Shown here: positions 5,812 through 15,477 of the stretch, piece by piece | Position numbering within the stretch: the first letter of the stretch is position 1 | Layout of the letters: every line of letters begins with the position of its first letter | Source: Hespellia sp. | GTDB lineage: Bacteria; Bacillota; Clostridia; Lachnospirales; Lachnospiraceae | Length of the DNA: 64,000 bases | Assembly (NCBI GenBank): GCA_028689735.1 | Contig: JAQVCP010000007.1 | Location: 20,962 to 84,961, forward strand | Reading direction: 5' to 3' | Position numbers and translations under genes: made by a program | The notes under the pieces: generated by a model | Database searches by the model: none | Told to the model about the DNA's origin: nothing | Seen by the model: the letters and a program-made list of their open reading frames with translations, nothing else

Positions 5812-5841
5812 AATATTATAAATAAAGAAGAGGTGATGTTC

Positions 5842-6075
5842 ATGGCACGCAATATACCAATCAAGGTTGCGAGGGCTCGGCTGGATATGACGCAGAAGAA
5901 GCTTGCAGAAAAAGTAGGTATTTCGAGACAGACGATGAATGCAATCGAGCAGGGAGATTATAATCCGACAATTAAGCTTTGCAGGTCCATCTGCGGAGTA
6001 CTTGGAAAATCATTAGATGAATTATTTGGGGAGGATGAGGAACATGAAGAAGATGAAAAAAACGCAGTTGGATGA
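5842..6075 (+). CDS. XRE/Cro-C1 helix-turn-helix regulator
   Basis: MTQKKLAEKVGISRQTMNAIEQGDYNPTIKL; RBS GAGGTG. Confidence 0.9.
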   Translation: MARNIPIKVARARLDMTQKKLAEKVGISRQTMNAIEQGDYNPTIKLCRSICGVLGKSLDELFGEDEEHEEDEKNAVG

Positions 6076-6511
6076 GATGCAGGAACAAAAGCTTCTAAAG
6101 ATCGAACACAATGGATGCTGGTTTGCTTTCTGGGGACTTTTGGCAATCATATTTATCCAGATACTCCTGGATCATGGAAATGCGGGGCAGAATGTAGCCG
6201 GTGAATGGATTGTTTTCATGTGTCTCTGCATTTACATGTTGATTGCATCTCTGAAAAATGGAATCTGGGACCGCAGGTTTCAACCGACGCTGAAAACCAA
6301 TACTGCATTTAGTGCAGGTGGCGCAGCAGCAATTGCCATATTTAATTCCGTCCTCTCATATGTGAGGTATCACAAAATGGCAGGTTCCATTGCAGCGGGT
6401 ATTTTTATGTTTGTGATGACCTTTGTGATATGTATGATTATGTTCAGCATTACCACAATGATTTATAAGAAACGAAAAGAAAAACTGGAAGACATGGATG
6501 ATGAGGCATAG
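6044..6511 (+). CDS. Four-TM membrane protein (DUF6773-like), coupled to the XRE gene
   Basis: LDEMQEQKLLKIE then hydrophobic helices, KNGIWDR; overlaps the XRE 3' end; family name from recall only. Confidence 0.7.
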   Translation: MKKMKKTQLDEMQEQKLLKIEHNGCWFAFWGLLAIIFIQILLDHGNAGQNVAGEWIVFMCLCIYMLIASLKNGIWDRRFQPTLKTNTAFSAGGAAAIAIFNSVLSYVRYHKMAGSIAAGIFMFVMTFVICMIMFSITTMIYKKRKEKLEDMDDEA

Positions 6512-6568
6512 GATACCTTGTTACATTTTCCATGGTATCTGCAGGCAGTCTCTGTAAAAACAGCAGCG

Positions 6569-6606
6569 ATGGCGGATGTGTTATAAAAAAATAATACATC
6601 CGCCAT
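6569..6606. terminator. Hairpin between convergent genes, probably a bidirectional terminator
   Basis: ATGGCGGATGT...ACATCCGCCAT 11-bp perfect stem. Confidence 0.6.
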
Positions 6607-6658
6607 TGCTAAATTTTTATTGATATCCAGGTCATGTTCTGGTTTCAGAAGCACTTGT

Positions 6659-7015
6659 TCATTCCATCAACAACATCTTCTGGCCTTTTGCACTCAGTCT
6701 ATCATTCAGCCAATGCATATTCGGGGTTTCAAAGCAATAATAAAATTCATATTTTTCTATATATTCAGCCACAATATCTCTATACTCATCTTTCACGGAT
6801 GCCACAATGTTATTTCCATAAGAAACCAAATTACATGCAATCGGTTCCTTGTAATACGTTCTTGCATCTGCTCCTAACCGGAACTCAACAATCACATTTT
6901 CATTCTTTAAGAAATCTTTTGGTTTACAATTCGTGTCTATTGCCGATTGTTTCAAAGCAATATCTAATATTTCCTTATTTGTCATCATCTTTTTTCTCTC
7001 TTCTGCTTTACTCAA
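6659..7015 (-). pseudogene. 3'-truncated GNAT-family acetyltransferase
   Basis: ILDIALKQSAID...CNLVSYGNNIVASV...HWLNDRL matches the N-terminal half of a roughly 250-aa Clostridiales GNAT protein as I recall it; stops after KGQK without the acetyl-CoA-binding half. Confidence 0.6.
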
Positions 7016-7127
7016 TTTACGCGTTGCTCCCCCACCTTACACAGATTTCCTTGGAAGCTGAGGGCATCATTTGTAAGAATTATATCACATGGTCACTAAC
7101 TTTTCGTAACAAATATTGTTTTTATGT

Positions 7128-7145
7128 TGTAAAATATACTTGACA
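7128..7145 (+). promoter_or_regulatory. Imperfect palindromic operator overlapping the -35 (XRE module 2)
   Basis: TGTAAA-ATATAC-TTGACA, same architecture as 5771-5788. Confidence 0.55.
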
Positions 7146-7247
7146 TTTTGGATGTTATATTATATGGTTGATGTAGAAATAATAATGATCATTACACGCG
7201 TAATGAGGTCGAACACTTAAACCGTTTTCCATAAAGGAGGAACCCCT

Positions 7248-7757
7248 ATGAAAACTATGATCCTTATCTCTCTCTACCTTATACTTTGCATCGCCATCTA
7301 TTTTATTACCAGAAAGTTTTTTTCAAAAACAACTCCATCACCATGCGATGAGCGACAACTACTGGCAAGAGGCAACGCTTATAAATGTGCTTTTCTTGTA
7401 TTATTGGGCTATTTAGTGTTATGTATTATCACACAGAACGGTTTTCAGCAACTATTTTTCAGCACCCATGTGCTTTTGGTTCTCGGGATATGTCTTGGAT
7501 TTTTCGCTTTTGCCAGTGTTTCCATCCTTCAAGATGCATACCTGCCTCCTAAAGCAGATTCTAGAAATGCTGCTTTTTGCCTTGGAGCTATCAGCATCTC
7601 TAACATTGGACTGGGATTAACTCTTGATGAGATTAGAATTAATGACGGAATTCTTGAATACGTTCCAATTACTCTTATGTTAGGTATCACACTCTTTCTT
7701 TTATTTTTACTGTTCATCTTCAAACAGTATGTGTTGTCATATTCAGAGGAGGAATAG
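7248..7757 (+). CDS. Membrane protein, XRE-associated
   Basis: RBS AAAGGAGG; DERQLLARGNAYK motif plus about 5 TM segments. Confidence 0.75.
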   Translation: MKTMILISLYLILCIAIYFITRKFFSKTTPSPCDERQLLARGNAYKCAFLVLLGYLVLCIITQNGFQQLFFSTHVLLVLGICLGFFAFASVSILQDAYLPPKADSRNAAFCLGAISISNIGLGLTLDEIRINDGILEYVPITLMLGITLFLLFLLFIFKQYVLSYSEEE

Positions 7758-7759
7758 CT

Positions 7760-7966
7760 TTGAAAAATTTAAGACTAAAATCAGCTCGTGTTGCCTGTGA
7801 CCTGTCCCAACAACAGCTTGCTGACAAAGTAGATGTTACAAGACAAACAATTAGTGCTATCGAAAAAGGTAATTATAACCCCACTCTGAATTTATGCATC
7901 TCAATTTGTCAGACTTTGGGTAAAACCTTAGATGAATTATTTTGGCCTGCAAATGGTCAGCCTTAG
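7760..7966 (+). CDS. XRE/Cro-C1 helix-turn-helix regulator
   Basis: TTG start behind GAGGAGG; LSQQQLADKVDVTRQTISAIEKGNYNPTLNL; paralogue of 5842-6075. Confidence 0.9.
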   Translation: MKNLRLKSARVACDLSQQQLADKVDVTRQTISAIEKGNYNPTLNLCISICQTLGKTLDELFWPANGQP

Positions 7967-7985: not shown

Positions 7986-8021
7986 CCCCTCACAATGTTT
8001 CGCTTTGAAATGTAAATTGGA
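7986..8021 (+). repeat. 36-bp dispersed repeat, copy 1 (copy 2 at 14891-14926)
   Basis: CCCCTCACAATGTTTCGCTTTGAAATGTAAATTGGA; 35/36 identical to copy 2. Confidence 0.9.
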
Positions 8022-8225
8022 CTGTGTTAAGTGTAGACCTTTTTACCTCTCTCTCCCGTATATCCGAAAGGTAGGAAAATGACGATAAAAGCGGCTATTT
8101 CCACGCTCTTGGAAATGTGGTAGAATAGATGTTGTTAAAAGACATTTTAAAGTTGTCGAATAAAGTTATTTGTTTTTTGCGACGGAGCAATTTTATTCAG
8201 TTGGAAGTTGTAGAGGAGCACTTGT

Positions 8226-8392
8226 ATGATTGGTACAGTTGTGAAAGTGATAGTTGATAGACCATTAGGGAGCTACCATCCAGAACACAAAGATATGTTT
8301 TATCCTATAAACTATGGATATGTTGAAGGAATTGTTGCGCCAGATGGGTTTCTTTTACAGAGAAGCATTTTGAGTCAGATGTAATAATGTAA
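8226..8392 (+). pseudogene. Internally deleted small inorganic-pyrophosphatase-like gene
   Basis: MIGTVVKVIVDRPLGSYHPEHKDMFYPINYGYVEGIVAPDG joined to an out-of-frame C-terminus TEKHFESDVIM*; the central part is missing. Confidence 0.7.
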
Positions 8393-8396
8393 GTTT

Positions 8397-8418
8397 CAGT
8401 TTGCATTGCGGAAAATTT
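8397..8418 (+). repeat. 22-bp intergenic junction repeat, copy 1 (copy 2 at 13755-13776)
   Basis: CAGTTTGCATTGCGGAAAATTT, exact in both copies; each sits between a stop codon and GAATTTG plus RBS. Confidence 0.9.
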
Positions 8419-8446
8419 ATGAATTTGGCAGGGGAGGAATGAATAA

Positions 8447-8821
8447 TTGATATTCTTAGGTGTCATCTGTATAGTCTCTGCTTTATGTATTCTATATTTA
8501 AAATACAGAGTGGTTTTTACAGGAGAAAAAAGCAAAGGGAAAATTATTGGCATGGTAGATGAAAATACAGGATATCGCGTGGGCGGTGTATCTGTGAAAA
8601 AGCACTCTTACATAGTGCAAATTAAGCATAAAAATTACTATACGGCTCATGGGTGTATATTTGTTTCATTTTCAAAAAGAAAGATTGGAAATGAAATCTT
8701 TGTTTTTAAAAATGAAAAGTATGGAAATGAAGTTTTCGAGTGTTTTGATTTTCGCATAGAAGTATGTTCTATTTTGATGCTGTTATTTAGTGTCTTCTGC
8801 ATTTATGAAGGGCTGATATAA
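8447..8821 (+). CDS. Small AT-rich membrane protein, hypothetical
   Basis: RBS GGGGAGG; N- and C-terminal TM helices flanking a beta-rich soluble part. Confidence 0.65.
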   Translation: MIFLGVICIVSALCILYLKYRVVFTGEKSKGKIIGMVDENTGYRVGGVSVKKHSYIVQIKHKNYYTAHGCIFVSFSKRKIGNEIFVFKNEKYGNEVFECFDFRIEVCSILMLLFSVFCIYEGLI

Positions 8822-9119
8822 TACTTTCCCCGGCCAACAGACTGATCCAGCGTTTTTGAAATAACAGGCTGGAAACATCCTAGCCCTGCAGCATAATGTA
8901 TCCCATTGTAAAGGGAAGGCTGCCGCACATCAAACCCAAGATCACTTCCCATTAAAATTAAAATTCCCATGAACAGTACGACCCCGACGATACTGTTTTC
9001 CGTTCCGCACAATCTATTATTTTTTCTGTTCTCAGATACTTTCTCGCAGATCGTTTATTTACTTACACCGAATCGTAAAATGTAAAAGTGCTGCACCACC
9101 AGATTACGGTTAAATGCAT
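8803..9119 (-). pseudogene. Possible decayed third gene of the ABC exporter operon
   Basis: RBS GGAGG and ATG at 9119 with an early stop; a hydrophobic fragment continues at 8803-9012. Confidence 0.3.
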
Positions 9120-9142
9120 GTCTTACCTCCACTGCATGAATC

Positions 9143-10744
9143 TTAAGTATCTCTCTGCGGAAAAGAGCACACGCTTCGATAGAACAGCGCACTCATCAGA
9201 CCTAAGACCGTCGCAAAAAGAACCATTACAATCCTCCCGTCTATCAGCGTGCTCAGGAAAAAGACCGCCACCGCCAGTGCCATTTCCAGCAGCATATTCA
9301 CGAAAATTCCAAGCATGGATGCCACCCCCTGTTTGATAATCTCAACTTCATTTTCCCACCCGAAATTTGCAAATCGCTTTCCGACCCACATTCCGAAAGT
9401 CGTTGAAAATGCGATTGCTGCAAAAAGCACAATAAAATACAGCAGTATCATCCCAATATTTAATTTCAGCGAAATTGCAAAACAGATATTACAGATAAGA
9501 GCCGCCGGAACAAGAAGCAACAGGTTAAACGCCATCTTGCTTTTAAAAATCATGCTTTCCGCAATTGGAAGACTCTTCATAATCCATAGATTTTTCCCTT
9601 CCAGTGACCAGGATACAGAAGTCGTACAGGTCATAGTAAGCATCATCGCGATTGCAAATGGAGCCGCATAAAAAAATCCCTGCTGCATCCCGCCGATTTC
9701 CATACTCGCCAGCACTTTGTCTATTCCAATGAACACACAGATAACAGAACCGCTAACCGCCAGAAGCATGCCCATCCCAACATTCGTCAGATAGATAACG
9801 GAGGACGTAAACCGTTTCCATTCTTTCCGGACCAATGCGTACATCATCGAACGCGGCTGCATCTTACTCACTTTATAATTTGAACGACTGCTGCCCGTCA
9901 TCAGCGCTGTATTGATGGCTTTGTATTTGACAGCTACAATTGATACAAACAATACATATATACCAAATGACAACAGCAGGAACAGCAGCAGATAAAGCAC
10001 ACTGCTCTCATTCACGGCCCGATCGAATATCACAGACACCGGATACAGCTTATGAATCTGTGCCTCCAGTAATTTCCCCTGATCTTCCATTTTCCGGAAA
10101 AATTCCGCATTACTCCCGGCACCGTTAAAAATAAAGTTCAGACTGAATACCGCTGTAAGGAGAAGAAGCGTCAGCACCACCTGCACAAAGACCTTGAACC
10201 GGAACCTGGACCCAATGGCTGCAATCAATGCTCCGGCAAATGCAGCCAGTGACATCGGAATCAGTGGCGCAAAGCACGCTCCGATCAGCCAGATCAGCCA
10301 GGTCAGAGCCCCCGGTCTCTCCCAGATTGCATAACCGGCACACATCGGAATCATCACACACAGACTGAAAATCAGATTGTTGATATACATATAAAGAAAC
10401 TTTGCCGTAATCACCGTCTTCGTTGACACCGGAAGTGCCATCACCATATCATAATCCTTAAACGCAAACAGAAATCCGTTCGTTTTCACAAAGGTGAACA
10501 CAAGTGCAATGATGGAACTGATTGCCAGCGAATATCCCGGGAGCACATACGCCATCTTCAGATATCCGTACCCATACGCAACTGCAAAGCTGTATCCCAC
10601 CATCATGACAAAGACGATTGCCATCCCCGCATAAACACCCATCATGCGGTGTTTTTTCTTTGTGTCTGTCTCGTGACGAAGCACATTCAGCGATGACTGA
10701 TTCTTATATTGCGCCAAAAGCAGCGTGAACAGTTTACCTGGCAT
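9143..10744 (-). CDS. ABC-2 type exporter permease (large, multi-TM)
   Basis: KDYDMVMALPV, ALVRKEWKRF and SLEGKNLWIMKSLPI motifs; more than 10 TM segments; overlaps the ATPase stop. Confidence 0.85.
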   Translation of the reverse strand: MPGKLFTLLLAQYKNQSSLNVLRHETDTKKKHRMMGVYAGMAIVFVMMVGYSFAVAYGYGYLKMAYVLPGYSLAISSIIALVFTFVKTNGFLFAFKDYDMVMALPVSTKTVITAKFLYMYINNLIFSLCVMIPMCAGYAIWERPGALTWLIWLIGACFAPLIPMSLAAFAGALIAAIGSRFRFKVFVQVVLTLLLLTAVFSLNFIFNGAGSNAEFFRKMEDQGKLLEAQIHKLYPVSVIFDRAVNESSVLYLLLFLLLSFGIYVLFVSIVAVKYKAINTALMTGSSRSNYKVSKMQPRSMMYALVRKEWKRFTSSVIYLTNVGMGMLLAVSGSVICVFIGIDKVLASMEIGGMQQGFFYAAPFAIAMMLTMTCTTSVSWSLEGKNLWIMKSLPIAESMIFKSKMAFNLLLLVPAALICNICFAISLKLNIGMILLYFIVLFAAIAFSTTFGMWVGKRFANFGWENEVEIIKQGVASMLGIFVNMLLEMALAVAVFFLSTLIDGRIVMVLFATVLGLMSALFYRSVCSFPQRDT

Positions 10745-11450
10745 CTTCCACCACCTCCATAAAAACATCCTCCAGAGTCTGGTCCTTGATCAGCTCTTCC
10801 ATGGTACCTGCCGCAACGATTTTCCCCTGCTTGATGATGGCAATCTTGTTGCACAGTTTCTGCGCGACCTCCAGCACATGCGTTGAGAAGAAAATACAGC
10901 TGCCTCTTGCACAGAGCTCTCTCATCACATTCTTCAGATCCAGCGCCGCCTTCGGATCCAGCCCCACAAACGGTTCGTCAAGCACCATCAGCTTCGGCTC
11001 ATGGATCAGTGCTGAGATAATTGCCACCTTCTGCTTCATCCCGTGCGAATACGAGGAAATCAAATCTCCAAGTGCCGATGTGATTTCAAATAAATCGCCA
11101 TACTTTTTAATCCGTTCCTCCCGGACCTGCCCGTCAATTCCGAAAATGTCTGCAACAAAATTCAGATACTGGATTCCGGTCAGATGCTCATACAGATCCG
11201 GATTGTCTGGAATATATGCCGTCACCTTCTTGCATGCCATCGGTTCCGTCTTTACCGAGTGGCCGTCGATTCGGATATCTCCTTCCTCGAACTCGAGCAC
11301 TCCCACAATTGCCCGGATTGTCGTACTCTTTCCTGCACCGTTATGTCCGATAAAGCCGTAGATATCACCATCCTCAACGGTCAGATCAATATGATCTGCC
11401 GCACGTTTCCCCTTCTGATATGTCTTTGAAAAATTCCTGATTTCCAGCAT
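10734..11450 (-). CDS. ABC exporter ATP-binding protein
   Basis: GHNGAGKST, YSHGMKQK, LDEPFVGLDP. Confidence 0.95.
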   Translation of the reverse strand: MLEIRNFSKTYQKGKRAADHIDLTVEDGDIYGFIGHNGAGKSTTIRAIVGVLEFEEGDIRIDGHSVKTEPMACKKVTAYIPDNPDLYEHLTGIQYLNFVADIFGIDGQVREERIKKYGDLFEITSALGDLISSYSHGMKQKVAIISALIHEPKLMVLDEPFVGLDPKAALDLKNVMRELCARGSCIFFSTHVLEVAQKLCNKIAIIKQGKIVAAGTMEELIKDQTLEDVFMEVVEDAR

Positions 11451-11526
11451 CGCAACTGCCTCCCTGATTTTTATTTCGCTTTACTCAGCTTTCCGCCTTC
11501 ATTTTTGCAGATGTAAACGCAAAACA

Positions 11527-11577
11527 CCTCTATTGCATTTTCACTATACCTTTTCGGTTGCGGAAATGCAATAGAGG
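11527..11577 (-). promoter_or_regulatory. Promoter embedded in a 14-bp inverted repeat
   Basis: Arms CCTCTATTGCATTT / AAATGCAATAGAGG; minus strand TTGCAT-N17-TATAGT points into the ABC exporter. Confidence 0.5.
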
Positions 11578-11670
11578 CGTGGTTGATTTTATCCCGATCT
11601 GTTAACTGTGATGCAACTGTTTGTTCGTGAGCGTCCGGCACATATCAGGCACTCCAGCCCTTTATGCGCG

Positions 11671-11705
11671 TATGGATATGTCGAAGAAATTGTTGCTCCA
11701 GATGG
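11671..11705 (+). pseudogene. Second remnant of the pyrophosphatase-like gene
   Basis: Encodes YGYVEEIVAPDG; 32/35 nt identical to 8313-8347. Confidence 0.7.
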
Positions 11706-11869
11706 TGAAAAGCGTCAACCAATACAGGGTATTATGAAACATAACAGGTATCTTTCATAATCGTACTTGTGCTGATAACATATCAGAGTTATTATAAATA
11801 CAGTTCAGAAAAATGAACTGTATTATTTTTTGAACCGTAACAATAATTATGGTGCAATATGGAGGGTTT

Positions 11870-12226
11870 ATGAAAAGAGAACGATTTGAGTTTTTTGTCT
11901 TAACAATAACTATTTTTTGTGTAGGTGCTTTGTTGTATGGCTGTTTAGGAGCATCGCTGATATCTTCCGGAAATTCTTTTTTGAATATTCAAAGTCCTAT
12001 CGTGTCTTGTATCATTGCATCTGTTTTTGGTGGATATTTTTTGTTTGGTATTTTGTCAGGTGTCATTTTTACGGCAAAATGGCTCTCCAAGAAAACGTTA
12101 AAAATGAAAGTAGTATTTACAATATTCTTTTGCATACCAGTTTGGCTTGCTTTGGCAGGAATTTTCTATAGCATTCCTTATGGGATTTATAATGTTATTC
12201 AATATAAAAAGGTAAATGAGAATTGA
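11870..12226 (+). CDS. Small membrane protein, hypothetical
   Basis: RBS GGAGG, 3-4 TM helices. Confidence 0.75.
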   Translation: MKRERFEFFVLTITIFCVGALLYGCLGASLISSGNSFLNIQSPIVSCIIASVFGGYFLFGILSGVIFTAKWLSKKTLKMKVVFTIFFCIPVWLALAGIFYSIPYGIYNVIQYKKVNEN

Positions 12227-12247
12227 CCGGGCTGAAAGCGAGGGATG

Positions 12248-12350
12248 CTTCTTGAACGAAGTTCAAGAAGATGGAGATTTAGATAACTTGGAATTGAACA
12301 AAATCGCTGCGCGATGGCCTGTCAAGGCTGTGGTGCAGCGATTTTGTTCA
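12248..12350. repeat. Two adjacent perfect inverted repeats
   Basis: CTTCTTGAAC-GAA-GTTCAAGAAG (12248-12270) and TGAACAAAATCGCTGC...GCAGCGATTTTGTTCA (12295-12350). Confidence 0.85.
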
Positions 12351-12507
12351 CTCGAAAAATTATTGAATACACAATACTGATTAAAAACTGAATATTTATG
12401 AAGGGTAATTGTGACGATCAAAAATAGACATATCACAACAAAACAAGTATAATGATTGTATCAATGTTGGTTAAACCAATCTTGAATTTGCAAAGGAGGC
12501 ATGTAAT

Positions 12508-12822
12508 ATGTTACTAATTTTATTTGACTTGATGATGGCATTAATTATGTTCTTGATAGGACTATTCTTTTACAAATCCAAAGGGAAAGCGGTTAATTTG
12601 TTAACTGGTTATAATATGAAGGCGGATGACGAACGACAAAAATACAACGAACCAGAAATGTGTATAAATTATGGCATAAGACTTATGATTATGGCAATCC
12701 CTTTTTTAATCGGAGCGATTCTTGATTACTTTTCATCTGGAATGGGTTGTATGTTTGCATGGATTATTTTGACAATTCTTTTGATTTTGCTTGTTAAAAA
12801 AAGAATAAAAATAGAAAAATAA
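12508..12822 (+). CDS. DUF3784-like small membrane protein
   Basis: KAVNLLTGYN...YNEPEMC pattern with three TM helices; RBS AAAGGAGG. Confidence 0.7.
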   Translation: MLLILFDLMMALIMFLIGLFFYKSKGKAVNLLTGYNMKADDERQKYNEPEMCINYGIRLMIMAIPFLIGAILDYFSSGMGCMFAWIILTILLILLVKKRIKIEK

Positions 12823-12880
12823 TGATATGAACAATCCAGTTTATAGGAATGAACAATTTGGAAGCTGTGGGAGAAAGAAA

Positions 12881-13240
12881 ATGAAAAATATAAATAGAGT
12901 TGAAGTAGATGAAAAATGGGCAGATGCGACAATTATTGAAGCAGGCGATTATGTGTTTGTGGGGTATTGTATGGAAAATGAGGGACAACCAATTGAAAAG
13001 CAGATGCATGGTGCTTTTAATATTTTGGAAAATCGCTTAAAGAAAATCGGATTAACATTGGACTCCGTTGTAAAAATGGATTGTCTGTTTAAAGATATTG
13101 AAGATTTGGATGTATTGCCGAGTGTTATCAAAGAAAGATTTAGTGGAGGATATCCAACAAGAAAAGCATATGAAACAAAATTTATTCGAGAGGGAATAGC
13201 CTTCCAAATTGATGCAATAGCATACAAAGGATTTAGATGA
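12881..13240 (+). CDS. RidA (YjgF/YER057c/UK114) family protein
   Basis: AGDYVFV, GLTLDSVVK, YPTRKA, FQIDAIAY. Confidence 0.85.
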   Translation: MKNINRVEVDEKWADATIIEAGDYVFVGYCMENEGQPIEKQMHGAFNILENRLKKIGLTLDSVVKMDCLFKDIEDLDVLPSVIKERFSGGYPTRKAYETKFIREGIAFQIDAIAYKGFR

Positions 13241-13277
13241 CTTACAGTTTTGCAGAGAAGAATTTATGGGAGATGGA

Positions 13278-13736
13278 ATGGAAATATTTTGTTTAAATGG
13301 TTATCAGAACGAGAAAATAGAATTAGAAATTATTGATGTATTGGGTTTCCCAGAAAAAACAAGCTACGAGGGAGGGTATGACATTATTTGTCGCTTGTTG
13401 ATACAGATGGGAAGCTATCATATAATTTTCGATAAGCTATATTCTGCAACTGGAGCATTATATAGATTTTCAGATGAGTTAAAAAGATGTTACGCTAAAT
13501 TGGACGGGAAAGCGAAATATAACCTTTTACTTGAAAATGATTTATCTTTTGAAGTTGAAATGGTAGGCTCTGGACATGCTGTTGTAACTGGTAGTTTCCA
13601 AGAAAGACCTGACAAGGAAAATGTATTCTCGTTTGAAATGGAAACTGACCAATCATGTTTTCCATTGGTTTTTCAAGGAATTGATGCACTCAAGGACATA
13701 TATGGAGATGAAATGGGAATCAGAAAACCTCTTTGA
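13278..13736 (+). CDS. Hypothetical protein, possibly WapI-like immunity protein
   Basis: Intact 152-aa ORF with RBS; beta-rich, ends FEMETDQSCF; immunity similarity is recall only. Confidence 0.55.
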   Translation: MEIFCLNGYQNEKIELEIIDVLGFPEKTSYEGGYDIICRLLIQMGSYHIIFDKLYSATGALYRFSDELKRCYAKLDGKAKYNLLLENDLSFEVEMVGSGHAVVTGSFQERPDKENVFSFEMETDQSCFPLVFQGIDALKDIYGDEMGIRKPL

Positions 13737-13754
13737 TAACAGGAGTTACAATTA

Positions 13755-13776
13755 CAGTTTGCATTGCGGAAAATTT
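13755..13776 (+). repeat. 22-bp intergenic junction repeat, copy 2
   Basis: Exact match to 8397-8418. Confidence 0.9.
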
Positions 13777-13797
13777 GAATTTGAGAAGGATATAAAA

Positions 13798-14127
13798 ATG
13801 GATGAAAGAATTATTGGTTTTATTGCTTGGGCAATTATAGGATGTTTTATAATTGGGCTTGGTATTAGTGCTTTTTTTAGGAAGAAAGCAGTTGATTTTT
13901 GGGCAAATGTTAAAGTAGAACCCATGAATGACATTAGAAAATATAATTACGCATTAGGAAAATTACTTATCGTATATGGTGTGATATTCAATATATTAGG
14001 AATACCTTTACTTAGTGGACAAAATTCCCCTCTTATTTTATTGTCAGTATTGGGAATAATGATTGAAACAATTGTTACAATGGTATTTTATACACAAATG
14101 ATTGCTAAGAAATATAGAGCGAATTAG
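13798..14127 (+). CDS. Small three-TM membrane protein (DUF3784-like)
   Basis: RBS GAAGGA; AVDFWAN...DIRKYNYALGKL. Confidence 0.7.
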   Translation: MDERIIGFIAWAIIGCFIIGLGISAFFRKKAVDFWANVKVEPMNDIRKYNYALGKLLIVYGVIFNILGIPLLSGQNSPLILLSVLGIMIETIVTMVFYTQMIAKKYRAN

Positions 14128-14209
14128 ACAAATTCAGTTATAATTTGTAAAGCAGATGAATAGTGAATTGCCAATATAGACTACATCGAAAGCCAAGCCA
14201 AAGTAAAAC

Positions 14210-14272
14210 CAGACAAGCCAGTCAACAGGCAAGATAAACGGCACTTTGTGCCGCCCCTGACAGGCTTGTCTG
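14210..14272. repeat. Branched palindromic element (REP/attC-like)
   Basis: Outer arms CAGACAAGCCAGTCA / TGACAGGCTTGTCTG (14/15); inner CGGCAC-TTT-GTGCCG. Confidence 0.75.
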
Positions 14273-14325
14273 TCTTTGCTGATAGGTGATCAAGGGACTT
14301 ATTTTACAGCCCATTTTCCACCTCT

Positions 14326-15477
14326 TTATTTTCCTTGCACTGCTTCGGCTTCTATATACTTGCTCCTCACATCCTCAGCAATCTTTTCCTGAATTTTCTG
14401 TTCCAATCGGTCCGTCCAGTTTTCATTTACATCAGATTGTATGATCAATTCTTCTTCATCTACCGGTATCTTTCCGTGTTTCTCCGGTGTTAAGATGTGG
14501 TTAGAATACTCCAGGAACAGTATATACTGTTCCTCATCCTTCATTCTTAAATACCCTTTAAAATAGCCTGTATCCTCAGAATACTGATAATATTTCATCT
14601 GCATGTTTTCCGATACAGAGATTGTATCCTGCTCTTTCACTGATAAGTCTGTACAATCTTTATATATCTGTTGAATCTGAAACTCCGCCTCTGAATGTAT
14701 GATAAATCCATCCGCTGTCGGCTCCGACATCACTGGATTTGCACCCTCGTCATATGGCAGACAAATACCAGAAACAATGATATCTGCCTGACTTTCCAAG
14801 TCTCCCATTGTGCGATTGCCAAGTTCCGCACTTATTTCCACATAACCGACCATTCCGCCAATCGTAAGCATAATGCAGACACCAATTATGCCCCTCACAA
14901 TGTTTCGTTTTGAAATGTAAATTGGAATGTGTTTCACATTTATCCGCAAAAGACCCAACGCACAGAACAAAATCACGCAACCTAAGATCAGGCACCATAG
15001 CAAAGGATTGTCCGACCAGGGACTTATTCTCCCAGCATAAAATATGGATGTGGGGCCATCCACTTTCCCCATAAGGTTGATTACCTGATTTTGAACATAC
15101 AGAGTTCGTGCACAAATGCCAACAATAAAGACAAATGCAATGCCGATGATTGCTGTCAAAATAAGAATCTGTTTCCGCTTCTTTGCCTTTTCCCAGTAAA
15201 AATCGGTTTTCTGCAATGTGTCCGTAATGATTTGATTTGCCTTTTCATTTGTGATTTGCGCTTCCACACTGCGCTCTCCGCTCATGAGTTCCCAAACGCT
15301 CACATCCAGTATGTCTGCTAATGTCTCCAGCAATTTGATATCTGGAAACCCTTTTCCCGTTTCCCATTTCGATATTGCTTTGTCTGTCACATGAATCTGC
15401 TCTGCCAGTTCTTTCTGTGTCATTTTCTTTTCCTTGCGCAGTTTACAGATGAATTTCCCCATCTTAACATTATCCAT
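14326..15477 (-). CDS. XRE-HTH regulator fused to membrane segments and a C-terminal soluble domain
   Basis: MTQKELAEQIHVTDKAISKWETGKGFPD; TM helices; KVDGPTSIFYAG motif; contains repeat 14891-14926. Confidence 0.8.
   Translation of the reverse strand: MDNVKMGKFICKLRKEKKMTQKELAEQIHVTDKAISKWETGKGFPDIKLLETLADILDVSVWELMSGERSVEAQITNEKANQIITDTLQKTDFYWEKAKKRKQILILTAIIGIAFVFIVGICARTLYVQNQVINLMGKVDGPTSIFYAGRISPWSDNPLLWCLILGCVILFCALGLLRINVKHIPIYISKRNIVRGIIGVCIMLTIGGMVGYVEISAELGNRTMGDLESQADIIVSGICLPYDEGANPVMSEPTADGFIIHSEAEFQIQQIYKDCTDLSVKEQDTISVSENMQMKYYQYSEDTGYFKGYLRMKDEEQYILFLEYSNHILTPEKHGKIPVDEEELIIQSDVNENWTDRLEQKIQEKIAEDVRSKYIEAEAVQGK
14891..14926 (+). repeat. 36-bp dispersed repeat, copy 2, inside a CDS
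   Basis: 35/36 identical to 7986-8021; read on the minus strand within the peptide KHIPIYISKRNIVRG. Confidence 0.9.

What the first reader, a model, noticed from the sequence alone, without database searches (positions are those of the whole stretch)
8187..14160. Integron-like array of small genes separated by recurring stop-CAGTTT...GAATTT-RBS junctions
Seen: small, AT-rich, plus-strand genes of unrelated function (PPase-like, membrane proteins, DUF3784-like, RidA, immunity-like) with short spacers that repeatedly contain CAGTT(T) soon after the stop (8397, 12837, 13245, 13755, 14135) and GAATTT or TTGGAAGYTGT just before the next RBS (8201, 8421, 12484, 12858, 13260, 13777). Two spacers share an exact 22-mer, CAGTTTGCATTGCGGAAAATTT (8397, 13755), 5.4 kb apart and flanking different genes. 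Established: promoterless single-gene cassettes bounded by recombination sites are the hallmark of integrons, which are poorly documented in Firmicutes, and these spacers are not classical attC sites. Inference: a cassette capture and shuffling system with its recombinase elsewhere in the genome.
Basis: partly seen in the sequence, partly recalled or inferred. Interest (0 to 1): 0.75.

Follow-up and report, generated by a model that had tools for sequence, protein, structure and literature searches.

The report
Small-gene cassette array with shared junctions
A gut Lachnospiraceae genome (Hespellia-like) carries rows of small unrelated genes joined by a shared ~40-base junction sequence, and the genes have been swapped between rows and between species roughly at that junction, which recalls an integron although integron sites and an integron enzyme are both absent.

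Summary
An exact 22-mer (25 nt with one mismatch) lies at 8397 and 13755 between unrelated genes. CAGTT and GAATTT/AATTTG are concentrated in the spacers of a low-GC (33% against 43%) plus-strand array.

Corrections:
- The array is split by a 2.9-kb GC-richer ABC-transporter segment on the minus strand.
- The 'PPase' is a truncated fragment.
- Only 2 of 7 junctions carry the full motif. The others are degenerate.

The same junction occurs in a second array of this genome (contig C99), in another Hespellia species and in one Anaerostipes MAG. A third own array (C147) carries only the GAATTTG box.

Single-gene units (GNAT, MerR, DUF1697, DUF3784, AAA kinase, RidA) recur in different orders. Three of them (MerR, GNAT, RidA) are more alike between species (82-98.7%) than core genes (71-80%). 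The left edge of the 98.7% MerR segment falls exactly on ATGAATTTG.

This is not an integron. The junctions do not fold into hairpins, and no tyrosine recombinase lies on the array contigs, apart from one weak partial match about 8 kb from the C99 array.

Best reading (about 0.5): a lineage-restricted cassette array whose units are exchanged within the junction element by a still unknown route.

The parts
7986..8028 (+). Left copy of a 43-nt direct repeat that brackets the whole islet. The right copy (14891-14933) lies inside the HTH-membrane gene 14326-15477.
   Evidence: D1, 95% identity. The left copy reads as a remnant of a paralogous gene.
8098..8126 (+). Promoter-like site (TTTCCA-17-TAGAAT with a TG extension) ahead of the first unit.
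8195..8218 (+). J0, short junction form ATTCAGTTGGAAGTTGTAGAGGAG, between the promoter and the first gene.
   Evidence: Its right half matches junctions in G003 and Anaerostipes.
8226..8384 (+). Truncated inorganic-pyrophosphatase-like fragment (52 aa).
   Evidence: NF002317, E 0.0047, 20 residues only. A second fragment lies at 11671-11760 (D2).
8394..8428 (+). J1, full junction element TTTCAGTTTGCATTGCGGAAAATTTATGAATTTGG.
   Evidence: E 1.7e-4 with a profile that held no window sequence
8447..8821 (+). Unit: 124-aa membrane protein with no family match.
8822..11670 (-). GC-richer segment that interrupts the array: ABC permease 9143-10768 and ATPase 10734-11450.
11671..11760 (+). Second pyrophosphatase-like fragment. 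It repeats 8313-8347 at 91% identity.
   Evidence: D2
11870..12226 (+). Unit: 118-aa membrane protein with no family match.
12282..12348 (+). Solo hairpin. In related genomes it is the end of an element that carries a tyrosine-recombinase-like gene and, by my reading of the translations, an IS91-type transposase gene.
   Evidence: (I2); one full copy in this genome
12425..12453 (+). Promoter-like site TAGACA-17-TATAAT ahead of the four-gene block.
12484..12499 (+). J2, right half only: GAATTTGCAAAGGAGG.
12508..12822 (+). Unit: DUF3784 membrane protein.
   Evidence: PF12650, 5e-18; homologues in arrays of G003:C4, G001:C79 and G006:C21
12823..12880 (+). J3, degenerate junction ACAATCCAGTTTATAGGAATGAACAATTTGGAAGCTGTGGGAG.
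   Evidence: (E 17 alone)
12881..13240 (+). Unit: RidA/L-PSP-like protein.
   Evidence: PF01042, 2e-10; 82% nt identity to copies in other contexts in G003:C20 and G002:C72
13241..13277 (+). J4, short junction CTTACAGTTTTGCAGAGAAGAATTTATGGGAG.
13278..13736 (+). Unit: WapI-like immunity protein.
   Evidence: PF24716, 1e-14; homologues stand as single genes in other species
13746..13784 (+). J5, full junction element ACAATTACAGTTTGCATTGCGGAAAATTTGAATTTGAG.
   Evidence: best hit in the genome, E 1.5e-4
13798..14127 (+). Unit: 109-aa membrane protein, last gene of the array.
14128..14150 (+). J6, short junction ACAAATTCAGTTATAATTTGTAA with no gene after it.
14202..14280 (.). 23-nt-arm inverted repeat that closes the array; a likely two-way terminator.
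   Evidence: I6

Best explanation
The region is one of at least three low-GC gene-cassette arrays in this genome. The others lie on contigs C99 and C147.

Each unit is one small gene with its own ribosome-binding site. Units are joined by an element of about 40 nt, (A)CAAATTC-CAGTTTGC-ATTGCG-GAAAATTT-GAATTTG(T), followed by the RBS.

Shown:
- The left part (AAATTC/CAGYTTG) starts at or just after the stop codon. In the one informative pair (the GNAT unit) it stays with the upstream gene.
- In the two informative pairs (GNAT, MerR), the right part (GAATTTG plus the RBS) stays with the downstream gene.
- The same units stand in different orders in different arrays and species.
- Three units (MerR, GNAT, RidA) are much more alike between species than core genes are.
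- One 98.7%-identical segment begins exactly at ATGAATTTG.

Inferred:
- Units are exchanged by recombination inside the junction element. The agent would be either a site-specific recombinase encoded elsewhere or short-homology recombination after DNA uptake.
- The element also gives an incoming promoterless gene a translation start. The gene would then be read from the array promoters at about 8100 and 12440.

Content is a mix of small membrane proteins, an orphan toxin-immunity gene (WapI-like) and small enzymes. Sister arrays add GNATs, DUF1697, a kinase, a methyltransferase and a YezG-like immunity gene. This looks like an accessory defence and detoxification gene store.
For: - Motif real and specific: (only C161 and C99 score in 3.7 Mb).
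- Same junction elsewhere: Hespellia sp. G003:C4 (L018:7165) and Anaerostipes (L022:4807), each between other genes.
- A third own array at the start of C147, with GAATTTG junctions.
- Unit content.
- Shuffling, GNAT unit: own C99 against G003:C4 is 87-90% identical with different neighbours. Homology runs from the RBS to about 30 nt past the stop, including the left box, and ends at GAATT.
- Shuffling, MerR unit: own C147:446-1315 is 98.7% identical to G003:C4, and the left breakpoint lies exactly at ATGAATTTGT.
- Shuffling, other units: RidA is 82% identical in another context. The AAA-kinase, DUF1697 and DUF3784 units stand in other orders. G002:C45 holds C99 units in another order.
- Core genes are only 71-80% identical (leuS 80.5%).
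- Most junctions of the three Hespellia arrays carry a recognisable AAATTC/CAGYT and/or AATTTG box.
- Low GC.
Against: - No recombinase lies beside any array. None is on C161, and none is on G003:C4, G003:C20, G002:C45, G002:C72, G001:C79 or G001:C40. The only match near an array is a weak partial one about 8 kb from the C99 array, beyond core genes.
- The junctions have no hairpin.
- Dyad symmetry of the site exceeds shuffles in only 2 of 11 junctions.
- Only about 5 full copies are known anywhere. There were 2 true hits in one-genome-per-species for 185,579 species, and none in 400 other Lachnospiraceae genera, viral contigs or plasmids.
- Many junctions are degenerate, and several sister arrays lack the motif.
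- Comparisons at 75-86% identity only show that homology ends at the RBS and the stop codon, as any orthologue pair would.
- No circles, no empty sites and no strain-level variation could be examined.
Confidence: 0.5

Rival explanations
1. Passive linker. The junction is an inherited intercistronic sequence of one ancestral low-GC operon or islet. That islet was duplicated and passed between gut Lachnospiraceae as multi-gene blocks, then reshuffled by ordinary deletions, IS activity and illegitimate recombination. The junction has no role in recombination.
For: - Arrays share several units, and DUF1697 is followed by a DUF3784-family gene (different subtypes) in both C99 and G003:C4.
- IS200/IS605, a transposase and a solo IS-type end lie inside the arrays.
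- A foreign ABC segment and gene fragments show untidy rearrangement.
- No recombinase is linked to an array.
- The short boxes are ordinary A/T-rich words genome-wide.
Against: - The 22-30-nt core is identical within the genome and in another genus, while the sequence a few bases to either side is unrelated. Coding parts of shared units differ by 10-25%.
- The breakpoint of the 98.7% MerR segment sits on the GAATTTG box.
- The left and right halves of the junction assort independently.
Confidence: 0.3
2. Expression element. The conserved sequence works at the RNA or DNA level for gene expression, for example as a translation-coupling or enhancer sequence, an mRNA processing site, or the binding site of a regulator that controls all units together. 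It is kept by selection for that reason.
For: - It always lies between a stop codon and the next RBS, in one orientation, and its right part abuts the Shine-Dalgarno sequence.
- The core is under apparent constraint.
Against: - There is no conserved RNA structure and no Rfam match.
- No complementary copy that could encode a pairing RNA exists elsewhere in the genome.
- The site has no clear operator-like palindrome.
- Perfect copies mixed with heavily decayed ones fit a repeat or recombination site better than uniform selection does.
- A copy follows the last gene, with nothing downstream to express (J6).
Confidence: 0.13
3. Chance similarity of A/T-rich spacers.
For: Short boxes such as AATTTG before an RBS are no commoner than control hexamers across the genome.
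Against: - An exact 22-mer occurs twice where 0 are expected.
- An independent profile ranks the window junctions first in the genome.
- The same 30-mer occurs in another genus.
- By my rough Poisson estimate on the counts, the CAGTT excess in spacers has a probability of about 3e-5.
Confidence: 0.02

Closest known systems
Integrons and CALIN arrays (IntI, attI, attC)
   Same: - Co-oriented single-gene units that are mostly promoterless.
- A recurring element at the 3' end of each unit, including after the last gene.
- A promoter at the head of the array.
- Cargo of small enzymes, GNATs and proteins of unknown function.
- Units shuffled between arrays and species.
- A lineage-specific uniform site, as with Vibrio VCRs.
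   Different: - No IntI or any linked recombinase.
- The junctions are about 40 nt, conserved in sequence, and do not fold into attC-type hairpins.
- No GTTRRRY core.
- The host is a Firmicute.
rAID-1 (recombinase-associated acquired interbacterial defence) clusters of Bacteroidales (bioRxiv 10.1101/471110)
   Same: - Skewed GC content.
- Repetitive intergenic sequences that the authors call reminiscent of integrons.
- Arrays of orphan immunity genes in gut bacteria. Here there is a WapI-like gene, and a YezG-like gene in a sister array.
   Different: - rAID-1 clusters are headed by a conserved XerD-family recombinase gene, and none is present here.
- Immunity genes are a minority of the cargo here.
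- The phylum and the repeat sequence differ.
pdif (dif) modules of Acinetobacter plasmids (e.g. PMC6160057, PMC7399989)
   Same: Small gene modules bounded by short recombination sites, with no recombinase gene in the module; the host XerC/XerD are thought to act in trans.
   Different: By my recollection of the pdif papers, pdif sites are 28-bp XerC-6-XerD sites in alternating orientation. The junctions here are co-oriented, do not resemble a dif site, and have only weak dyad symmetry.
Orphan toxin/immunity modules downstream of polymorphic toxin genes (wapAI, cdi, rhs loci)
   Same: Tandem small units that include an immunity gene, with a short conserved sequence at each unit boundary that permits swapping by homologous recombination.
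   Different: In those loci, by established knowledge, the conserved boundary is coding sequence of the toxin. Here it is non-coding, no toxin gene is present, and most units are not immunity genes.

Membership tests
Integron | IntI-type tyrosine recombinase gene next to the array | tested here: not met
   PF00589 finds 5 full genes in the genome, none on C161. A weak partial match on C99 lies about 8 kb away, beyond core genes. None lies on the array contigs of G001-G003.
Integron | attC sites: imperfect hairpins (R''-L''/L'-R') of 57-141 nt at the 3' end of each cassette | tested here: not met
   Single-strand folds of both strands of six junctions give z-scores from -0.5 to +0.9 against shuffles. 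The consensus fold is -1.3 kcal/mol with no covariation.
Integron | Co-oriented, mostly promoterless single-gene cassettes read from a promoter at the array head | tested here: inconclusive
   All units lie on the plus strand with spacers of 37-62 nt. Promoter-like sites upstream of the two blocks lie at 8098 and 12425, though the scan also lists weaker sites inside the array. There are no transcript data.
Integron | Cassettes excise and integrate as units | not testable with these tools
Comparative data show units in new contexts.
CALIN (cluster of attC sites lacking an integrase) | Two or more attC sites | tested here: not met
   as above.
rAID-1 | Conserved XerD-family recombinase at the head of the cluster | tested here: not met
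rAID-1 | Repetitive intergenic sequences and skewed GC content | tested here: met
rAID-1 | Cargo mainly orphan immunity genes | tested here: inconclusive
   One WapI-like gene here. A YezG-like gene and a weak Imm74 match in G002:C45. Most of the other units are enzymes or membrane proteins.
pdif modules | Modules flanked by XerC/XerD-type sites (two inverted arms and a 6-bp spacer) | tested here: inconclusive
   An idealised 16-6-16 reading exists, but the symmetry exceeds shuffles in only 2 of 11 junctions. The candidate dif-like site upstream of the XerS-like gene on C14 does not resemble the junction.
Dispersed intergenic repeats (REP/BIME, BOX-like) | Many copies scattered over the genome, usually palindromic | tested here: not met
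   Profile hits occur only in the two arrays, and the junctions form no hairpin.

The most novel reading that the evidence does not exclude
Hespellia and some other gut Lachnospiraceae use a gene-capture system that needs no integron integrase. Single genes would be inserted, excised and exchanged at a co-oriented lox/dif-like site of about 38 bp: left arm ACAAATTCCAGTTTGC, spacer ATTGCG, right arm GAAAATTTGAATTTGT. The agent would be a recombinase encoded elsewhere, either a housekeeping Xer-type enzyme or one of the many serine recombinases. The site would also supply the translation start for each captured gene.
Probability: 0.25. Interest if true: 0.8.

Novelty: new variant of a known kind. 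Interest (0 to 1): 0.55.

Why it matters
Integrons are almost unknown in Firmicutes, yet gut Clostridia exchange accessory genes intensively. A short, sequence-defined junction at which single genes are swapped would be a second, independent way to build cassette arrays. It would give a handle for finding mobile single genes in gut metagenomes, such as immunity, detoxification and possibly resistance genes. It would also point to a recombinase activity still to be found. Even under the passive reading, the locus shows recent transfer of single-gene units between gut species.

Tried and rejected
1. Classical attC: folding of both strands is not different from shuffles.
2. Known RNA families: nothing relevant in Rfam.
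3. Metagenome scan with TTGCGGAAAATTTN{0,3}AAKTTG: the pattern was too loose.
4. Scan of 400 Lachnospiraceae genera with the 22-mer at up to 3 mismatches: 22 hits against 4 in the control. On inspection they lie in coding sequence (a recurrent ...KF.AME.AL... motif that I take to be FliD, and others) or at a promoter after an smpB-like gene, not at junctions.
5. Viral contigs, plasmids and phages: no junction match.
6. IS200/IS605 using the junction as a target: the flanks of 8 copies show no common junction-like target. One copy does sit inside a C99 junction.
7. Similarity to streptococcal difSL and to a candidate dif next to the XerS-like gene on C14: only an ATTTTCC word is shared.
8. 16-6-16 dyad symmetry: attractive on the idealised consensus but not robust on the real copies.
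9. The 3' flank of WapI homologues in other species looked motif-like by eye, but it does not score with the profile.
10. Reading the junction as coding sequence (frame ..SLHCGKFE..): it is in frame with the next gene in only 2 copies, the changes are not synonymous, and stops follow in other copies. Rejected by inspection.
11. Exact-protein look-ups for strain variants: only the same sample (SRR22315505) holds these proteins. Its contigs break at about 8249 and 13156, which cannot be interpreted without reads.
12. Synteny with congeners: the flanking genes are only 41-45% identical at protein level or absent, so no empty site could be defined.

Full report
**What is in the sequence.**
Positions 8.1-14.2 kb hold plus-strand genes of 52-156 codons with spacers of 37-62 nt, at 33-36% G+C. 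The window's flanks are 43-50% and the genome is 43.2%.

Family searches give:
- a truncated pyrophosphatase-like fragment (8226-8384);
- a 124-aa membrane protein;
- a 118-aa membrane protein;
- DUF3784 (12508-12822);
- a RidA/L-PSP-like protein (12881-13240);
- a WapI-like immunity protein (13278-13736);
- a 109-aa membrane protein.

The row is broken at 8822-11670 by a GC-richer segment. It carries an ABC permease and ATPase on the other strand and is bracketed by two diverged copies of the same piece of the pyrophosphatase-like gene (D2). A 43-nt direct repeat (7986-8028 and 14891-14933) brackets the whole islet, and its right copy lies inside a regulator gene (D1). Promoter-like sites ahead of the two blocks lie at 8098-8126 and 12425-12453. 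A long inverted repeat at 14202-14280 closes the row.

**The observation.**
The exact 22-mer CAGTTTGCATTGCGGAAAATTT occurs at 8397 and 13755 and nowhere else in the window, even with 3 mismatches. In the whole genome the only further relative lies on contig C99. CAGTT is concentrated in spacers, with 7 of 10 occurrences in 24% of the sequence, and so is AATTTG.

Aligned, the spacers give a bipartite element: (A)CAAATTC-CAGTTTGC-ATTGCG-GAAAATTT-GAATTTG(T), followed by the RBS. A profile made without any window sequence ranks the two full window copies first and second among all positions of the genome, at E about 1.5e-4. The other window junctions (J0, J3, J4, J6) are short or decayed forms. 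They are credible only as a set. The short boxes by themselves are ordinary words in this genome.

**More arrays, and the same junction in other genomes.**
- Contig C99 holds a second low-GC array of about 10 kb. It carries a protein of unknown function, a zinc-ribbon-like protein (my reading of its sequence; no family match), DUF3592, a GNAT, DUF1697, DUF3784, DUF6560, a methyltransferase and an AAA kinase, with the same junction at several places. An IS200/IS605 copy and a transposase lie inside it.
- The start of contig C147 holds a third array: GNAT, a tautomerase-like gene (my reading of its sequence), then MerR, with TAAATTTGAATTTGAGAGGAG-type junctions.
- A scan of one genome for each of 185,579 species found the junction core in only two other genomes. 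One is a Hespellia sp. MAG. There an 11-gene array sits between leuS and a trehalose operon, and the junction reads CAGTTTGCGTTGCGGAAAATTTCAAGTTGTAGAGGAG. The other is an Anaerostipes MAG from the same study, with CCAGTTTGCATTGCGGAAAATTTGAAGTTGTA between two unrelated genes.
- A sample of 400 other Lachnospiraceae genera, viral contigs, plasmids and phages gave no true copy.

The element is therefore real but narrow in range.

**Units move.**

| Unit | Compared places | Identity | Boundary or context |
|---|---|---|---|
| GNAT (MSIKQAV...) | own C99 and G003:C4 | 87-90% | Followed by DUF1697 in one and an unrelated 174-aa gene in the other. Homology starts at the RBS and runs about 30 nt past the stop, through AAATYC-CAGCTTG, and ends at GAATT. 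|
| MerR | own C147 and G003:C4 | 98.7% over 870 nt | Upstream sequences are unrelated. Identity begins exactly at ATGAATTTGT. |
| RidA | window, G003:C20, G002:C72 | 82% | Stands after a RhuM-like gene (my reading) and before a two-component system in the other genomes. |
| AAA kinase, DUF1697, DUF3784, 133-aa and DUF6560 units | own arrays and G003:C4, G002:C45, G001:C79, G001:C40 | 67-86% | Stand in other orders. |

Core genes of the same genome pair are 71-80% identical (leuS 80.5%). The MerR, GNAT and RidA units have therefore been exchanged after the species separated.

In the informative pairs, the left box of the junction stays with the gene before it and the right box with the gene after it. 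The two halves occur in different combinations. The last gene of the window array still carries a short junction with nothing behind it (J6). The comparisons at 75-86% identity add little, because there homology simply ends at the RBS and the stop codon.

**What it is not.**
- The junctions do not form hairpins on either strand (z from -0.5 to +0.9), and the consensus fold has no covariation. They are not attC sites.
- No tyrosine recombinase gene lies on the 88.9-kb window contig or on the six array contigs of the three congeners. The weak partial match on C99 is separated from that array by core genes. No serine recombinase lies on the window contig or on C99.
- Rfam has no matching family.
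- Earlier notes of this scan reported lox/dif-like cassette sites in other gut Clostridia. Prompted by them, I tested a 16-6-16 dyad reading of the junction. It fits the idealised consensus (13 of 16 arm positions), but it exceeds shuffles in only 2 of 11 real junctions. It remains a hypothesis.
- A XerS-like gene (C14:3256-4362) has a possible dif-like site upstream that does not resemble the junction.

**Most likely mechanism.**
I read the locus as a lineage-restricted cassette array. Single genes, each with its RBS, are joined by a conserved element of about 40 nt, and exchange of units happens inside that element.

Shown:
- the element itself;
- its position from stop codon to RBS;
- the linkage of its two halves to the neighbouring genes, in the GNAT and MerR comparisons;
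- shuffled order of units;
- transfer of the MerR, GNAT and RidA units after the species separated;
- one precise breakpoint on the right box.

Inferred:
- recombination at the element is the cause;
- the agent is either a trans-acting site-specific recombinase or short-homology recombination after uptake of foreign DNA;
- the element lets promoterless genes be expressed from the two array promoters.

The 22-30-nt core is identical in copies whose flanks are unrelated, and in two genera, while shared coding sequence differs by 10-25%. This argues for constraint or recent spread rather than drift. The mixture of perfect and decayed copies fits a recombination site or repeat better than a uniformly selected regulatory site.

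Against an active dedicated system stand four points: no linked enzyme, weak symmetry, few full copies, and sister arrays without the motif. My odds:
- 0.5 for exchange at the junction by any route, of which about half for a dedicated site-specific enzyme;
- 0.3 for a passive inherited linker;
- 0.13 for a purely expression-related element.

**Comparison with known systems.**
The locus behaves like an integron or CALIN array in layout and cargo, but it fails both defining tests (IntI, attC). The nearest described analogue in gut bacteria is the rAID-1 cluster of Bacteroidales, which has skewed GC, repetitive intergenic sequences and orphan immunity genes (10.1101/471110). That cluster is defined by a XerD-family recombinase at its head, which is absent here. 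pdif modules share the idea of host-enzyme-driven modules but not the site type or orientation. Full-text searches found no description of such arrays in Firmicutes.

**Limits.**
Only one genome per species is held, and the congeners are distant. The proteins of the array are on record only from the same sample. Circles, empty sites and strain-level breakpoints, which are the decisive data, remain untested.

Noticed in passing
window 12282-12348: A 26-nt-arm hairpin (TGAACAAAATCGCTGCGCGATGGCCT / AGGCTGTGGTGCAGCGATTTTGTTCA) is a solo copy here. In related genomes it is multi-copy, is often at contig ends, and lies roughly 150-260 nt upstream of a tyrosine-recombinase-like gene. That gene is followed by what I read as an IS91-type (zinc-finger, Y2) transposase gene. 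It looks like the end of a composite IS91-family element. In the window it is preceded by CTTG.
   Followed up: partly
window 7986-8028 and 14891-14933: A 43-nt direct repeat (95%) brackets the whole low-GC islet. The right copy is coding sequence of the HTH-membrane gene 14326-15477, and the left copy is a non-coding remnant of a paralogue. This suggests the islet was placed or enlarged by recombination between two such genes.
   Followed up: partly
window 8822-11670: A GC-richer segment with an ABC permease and ATPase on the minus strand is inserted in the array. It is flanked by two 91%-identical pieces of a pyrophosphatase-like gene (8313-8347 and 11671-11705).
   Followed up: partly
G000:C99:12473-14427 (own genome), also C126:11531-13487: An IS200/IS605-type element (tnpA and tnpB by my reading of the translations; about 1.95 kb) is present twice here. 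It occurs in at least 7 copies in G003 and many in G001, at 94-96% identity, well above the core identity of 71-80%. It therefore appears to have spread recently in the genus. One copy sits inside a junction of the C99 array.
   Followed up: partly
G000:C14:3256-4362 (own genome): A XerS-like 368-aa tyrosine recombinase gene. About 60-90 nt upstream lies the sequence GATTTTTCCAAAAGATATAGACGTAAAAAAC, which recalls the streptococcal xerS/difSL arrangement. It is a candidate chromosome dimer resolution site.
   Followed up: no
G000:C106 (own genome): Seven large-serine-recombinase genes lie within about 12 kb on one contig (C106:4137-16397), out of 25 in the genome.
   Followed up: no
L187 and L189 (metagenome contigs with WapI homologues): In two other species a WapI-like gene is a stand-alone module of about 760 nt. 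It keeps about 130 nt of upstream sequence (promoter-like, by eye) and about 170 nt of downstream non-coding sequence, and it is inserted between different core genes. In a third species (L178) the homologue sits beside a sequence I read as a tRNA gene.
   Followed up: partly
window 5833-7966: Two pairs of a small XRE-type regulator with a membrane protein (one of them DUF6773) lie just left of the array, inside the same low-GC islet.
   Followed up: no
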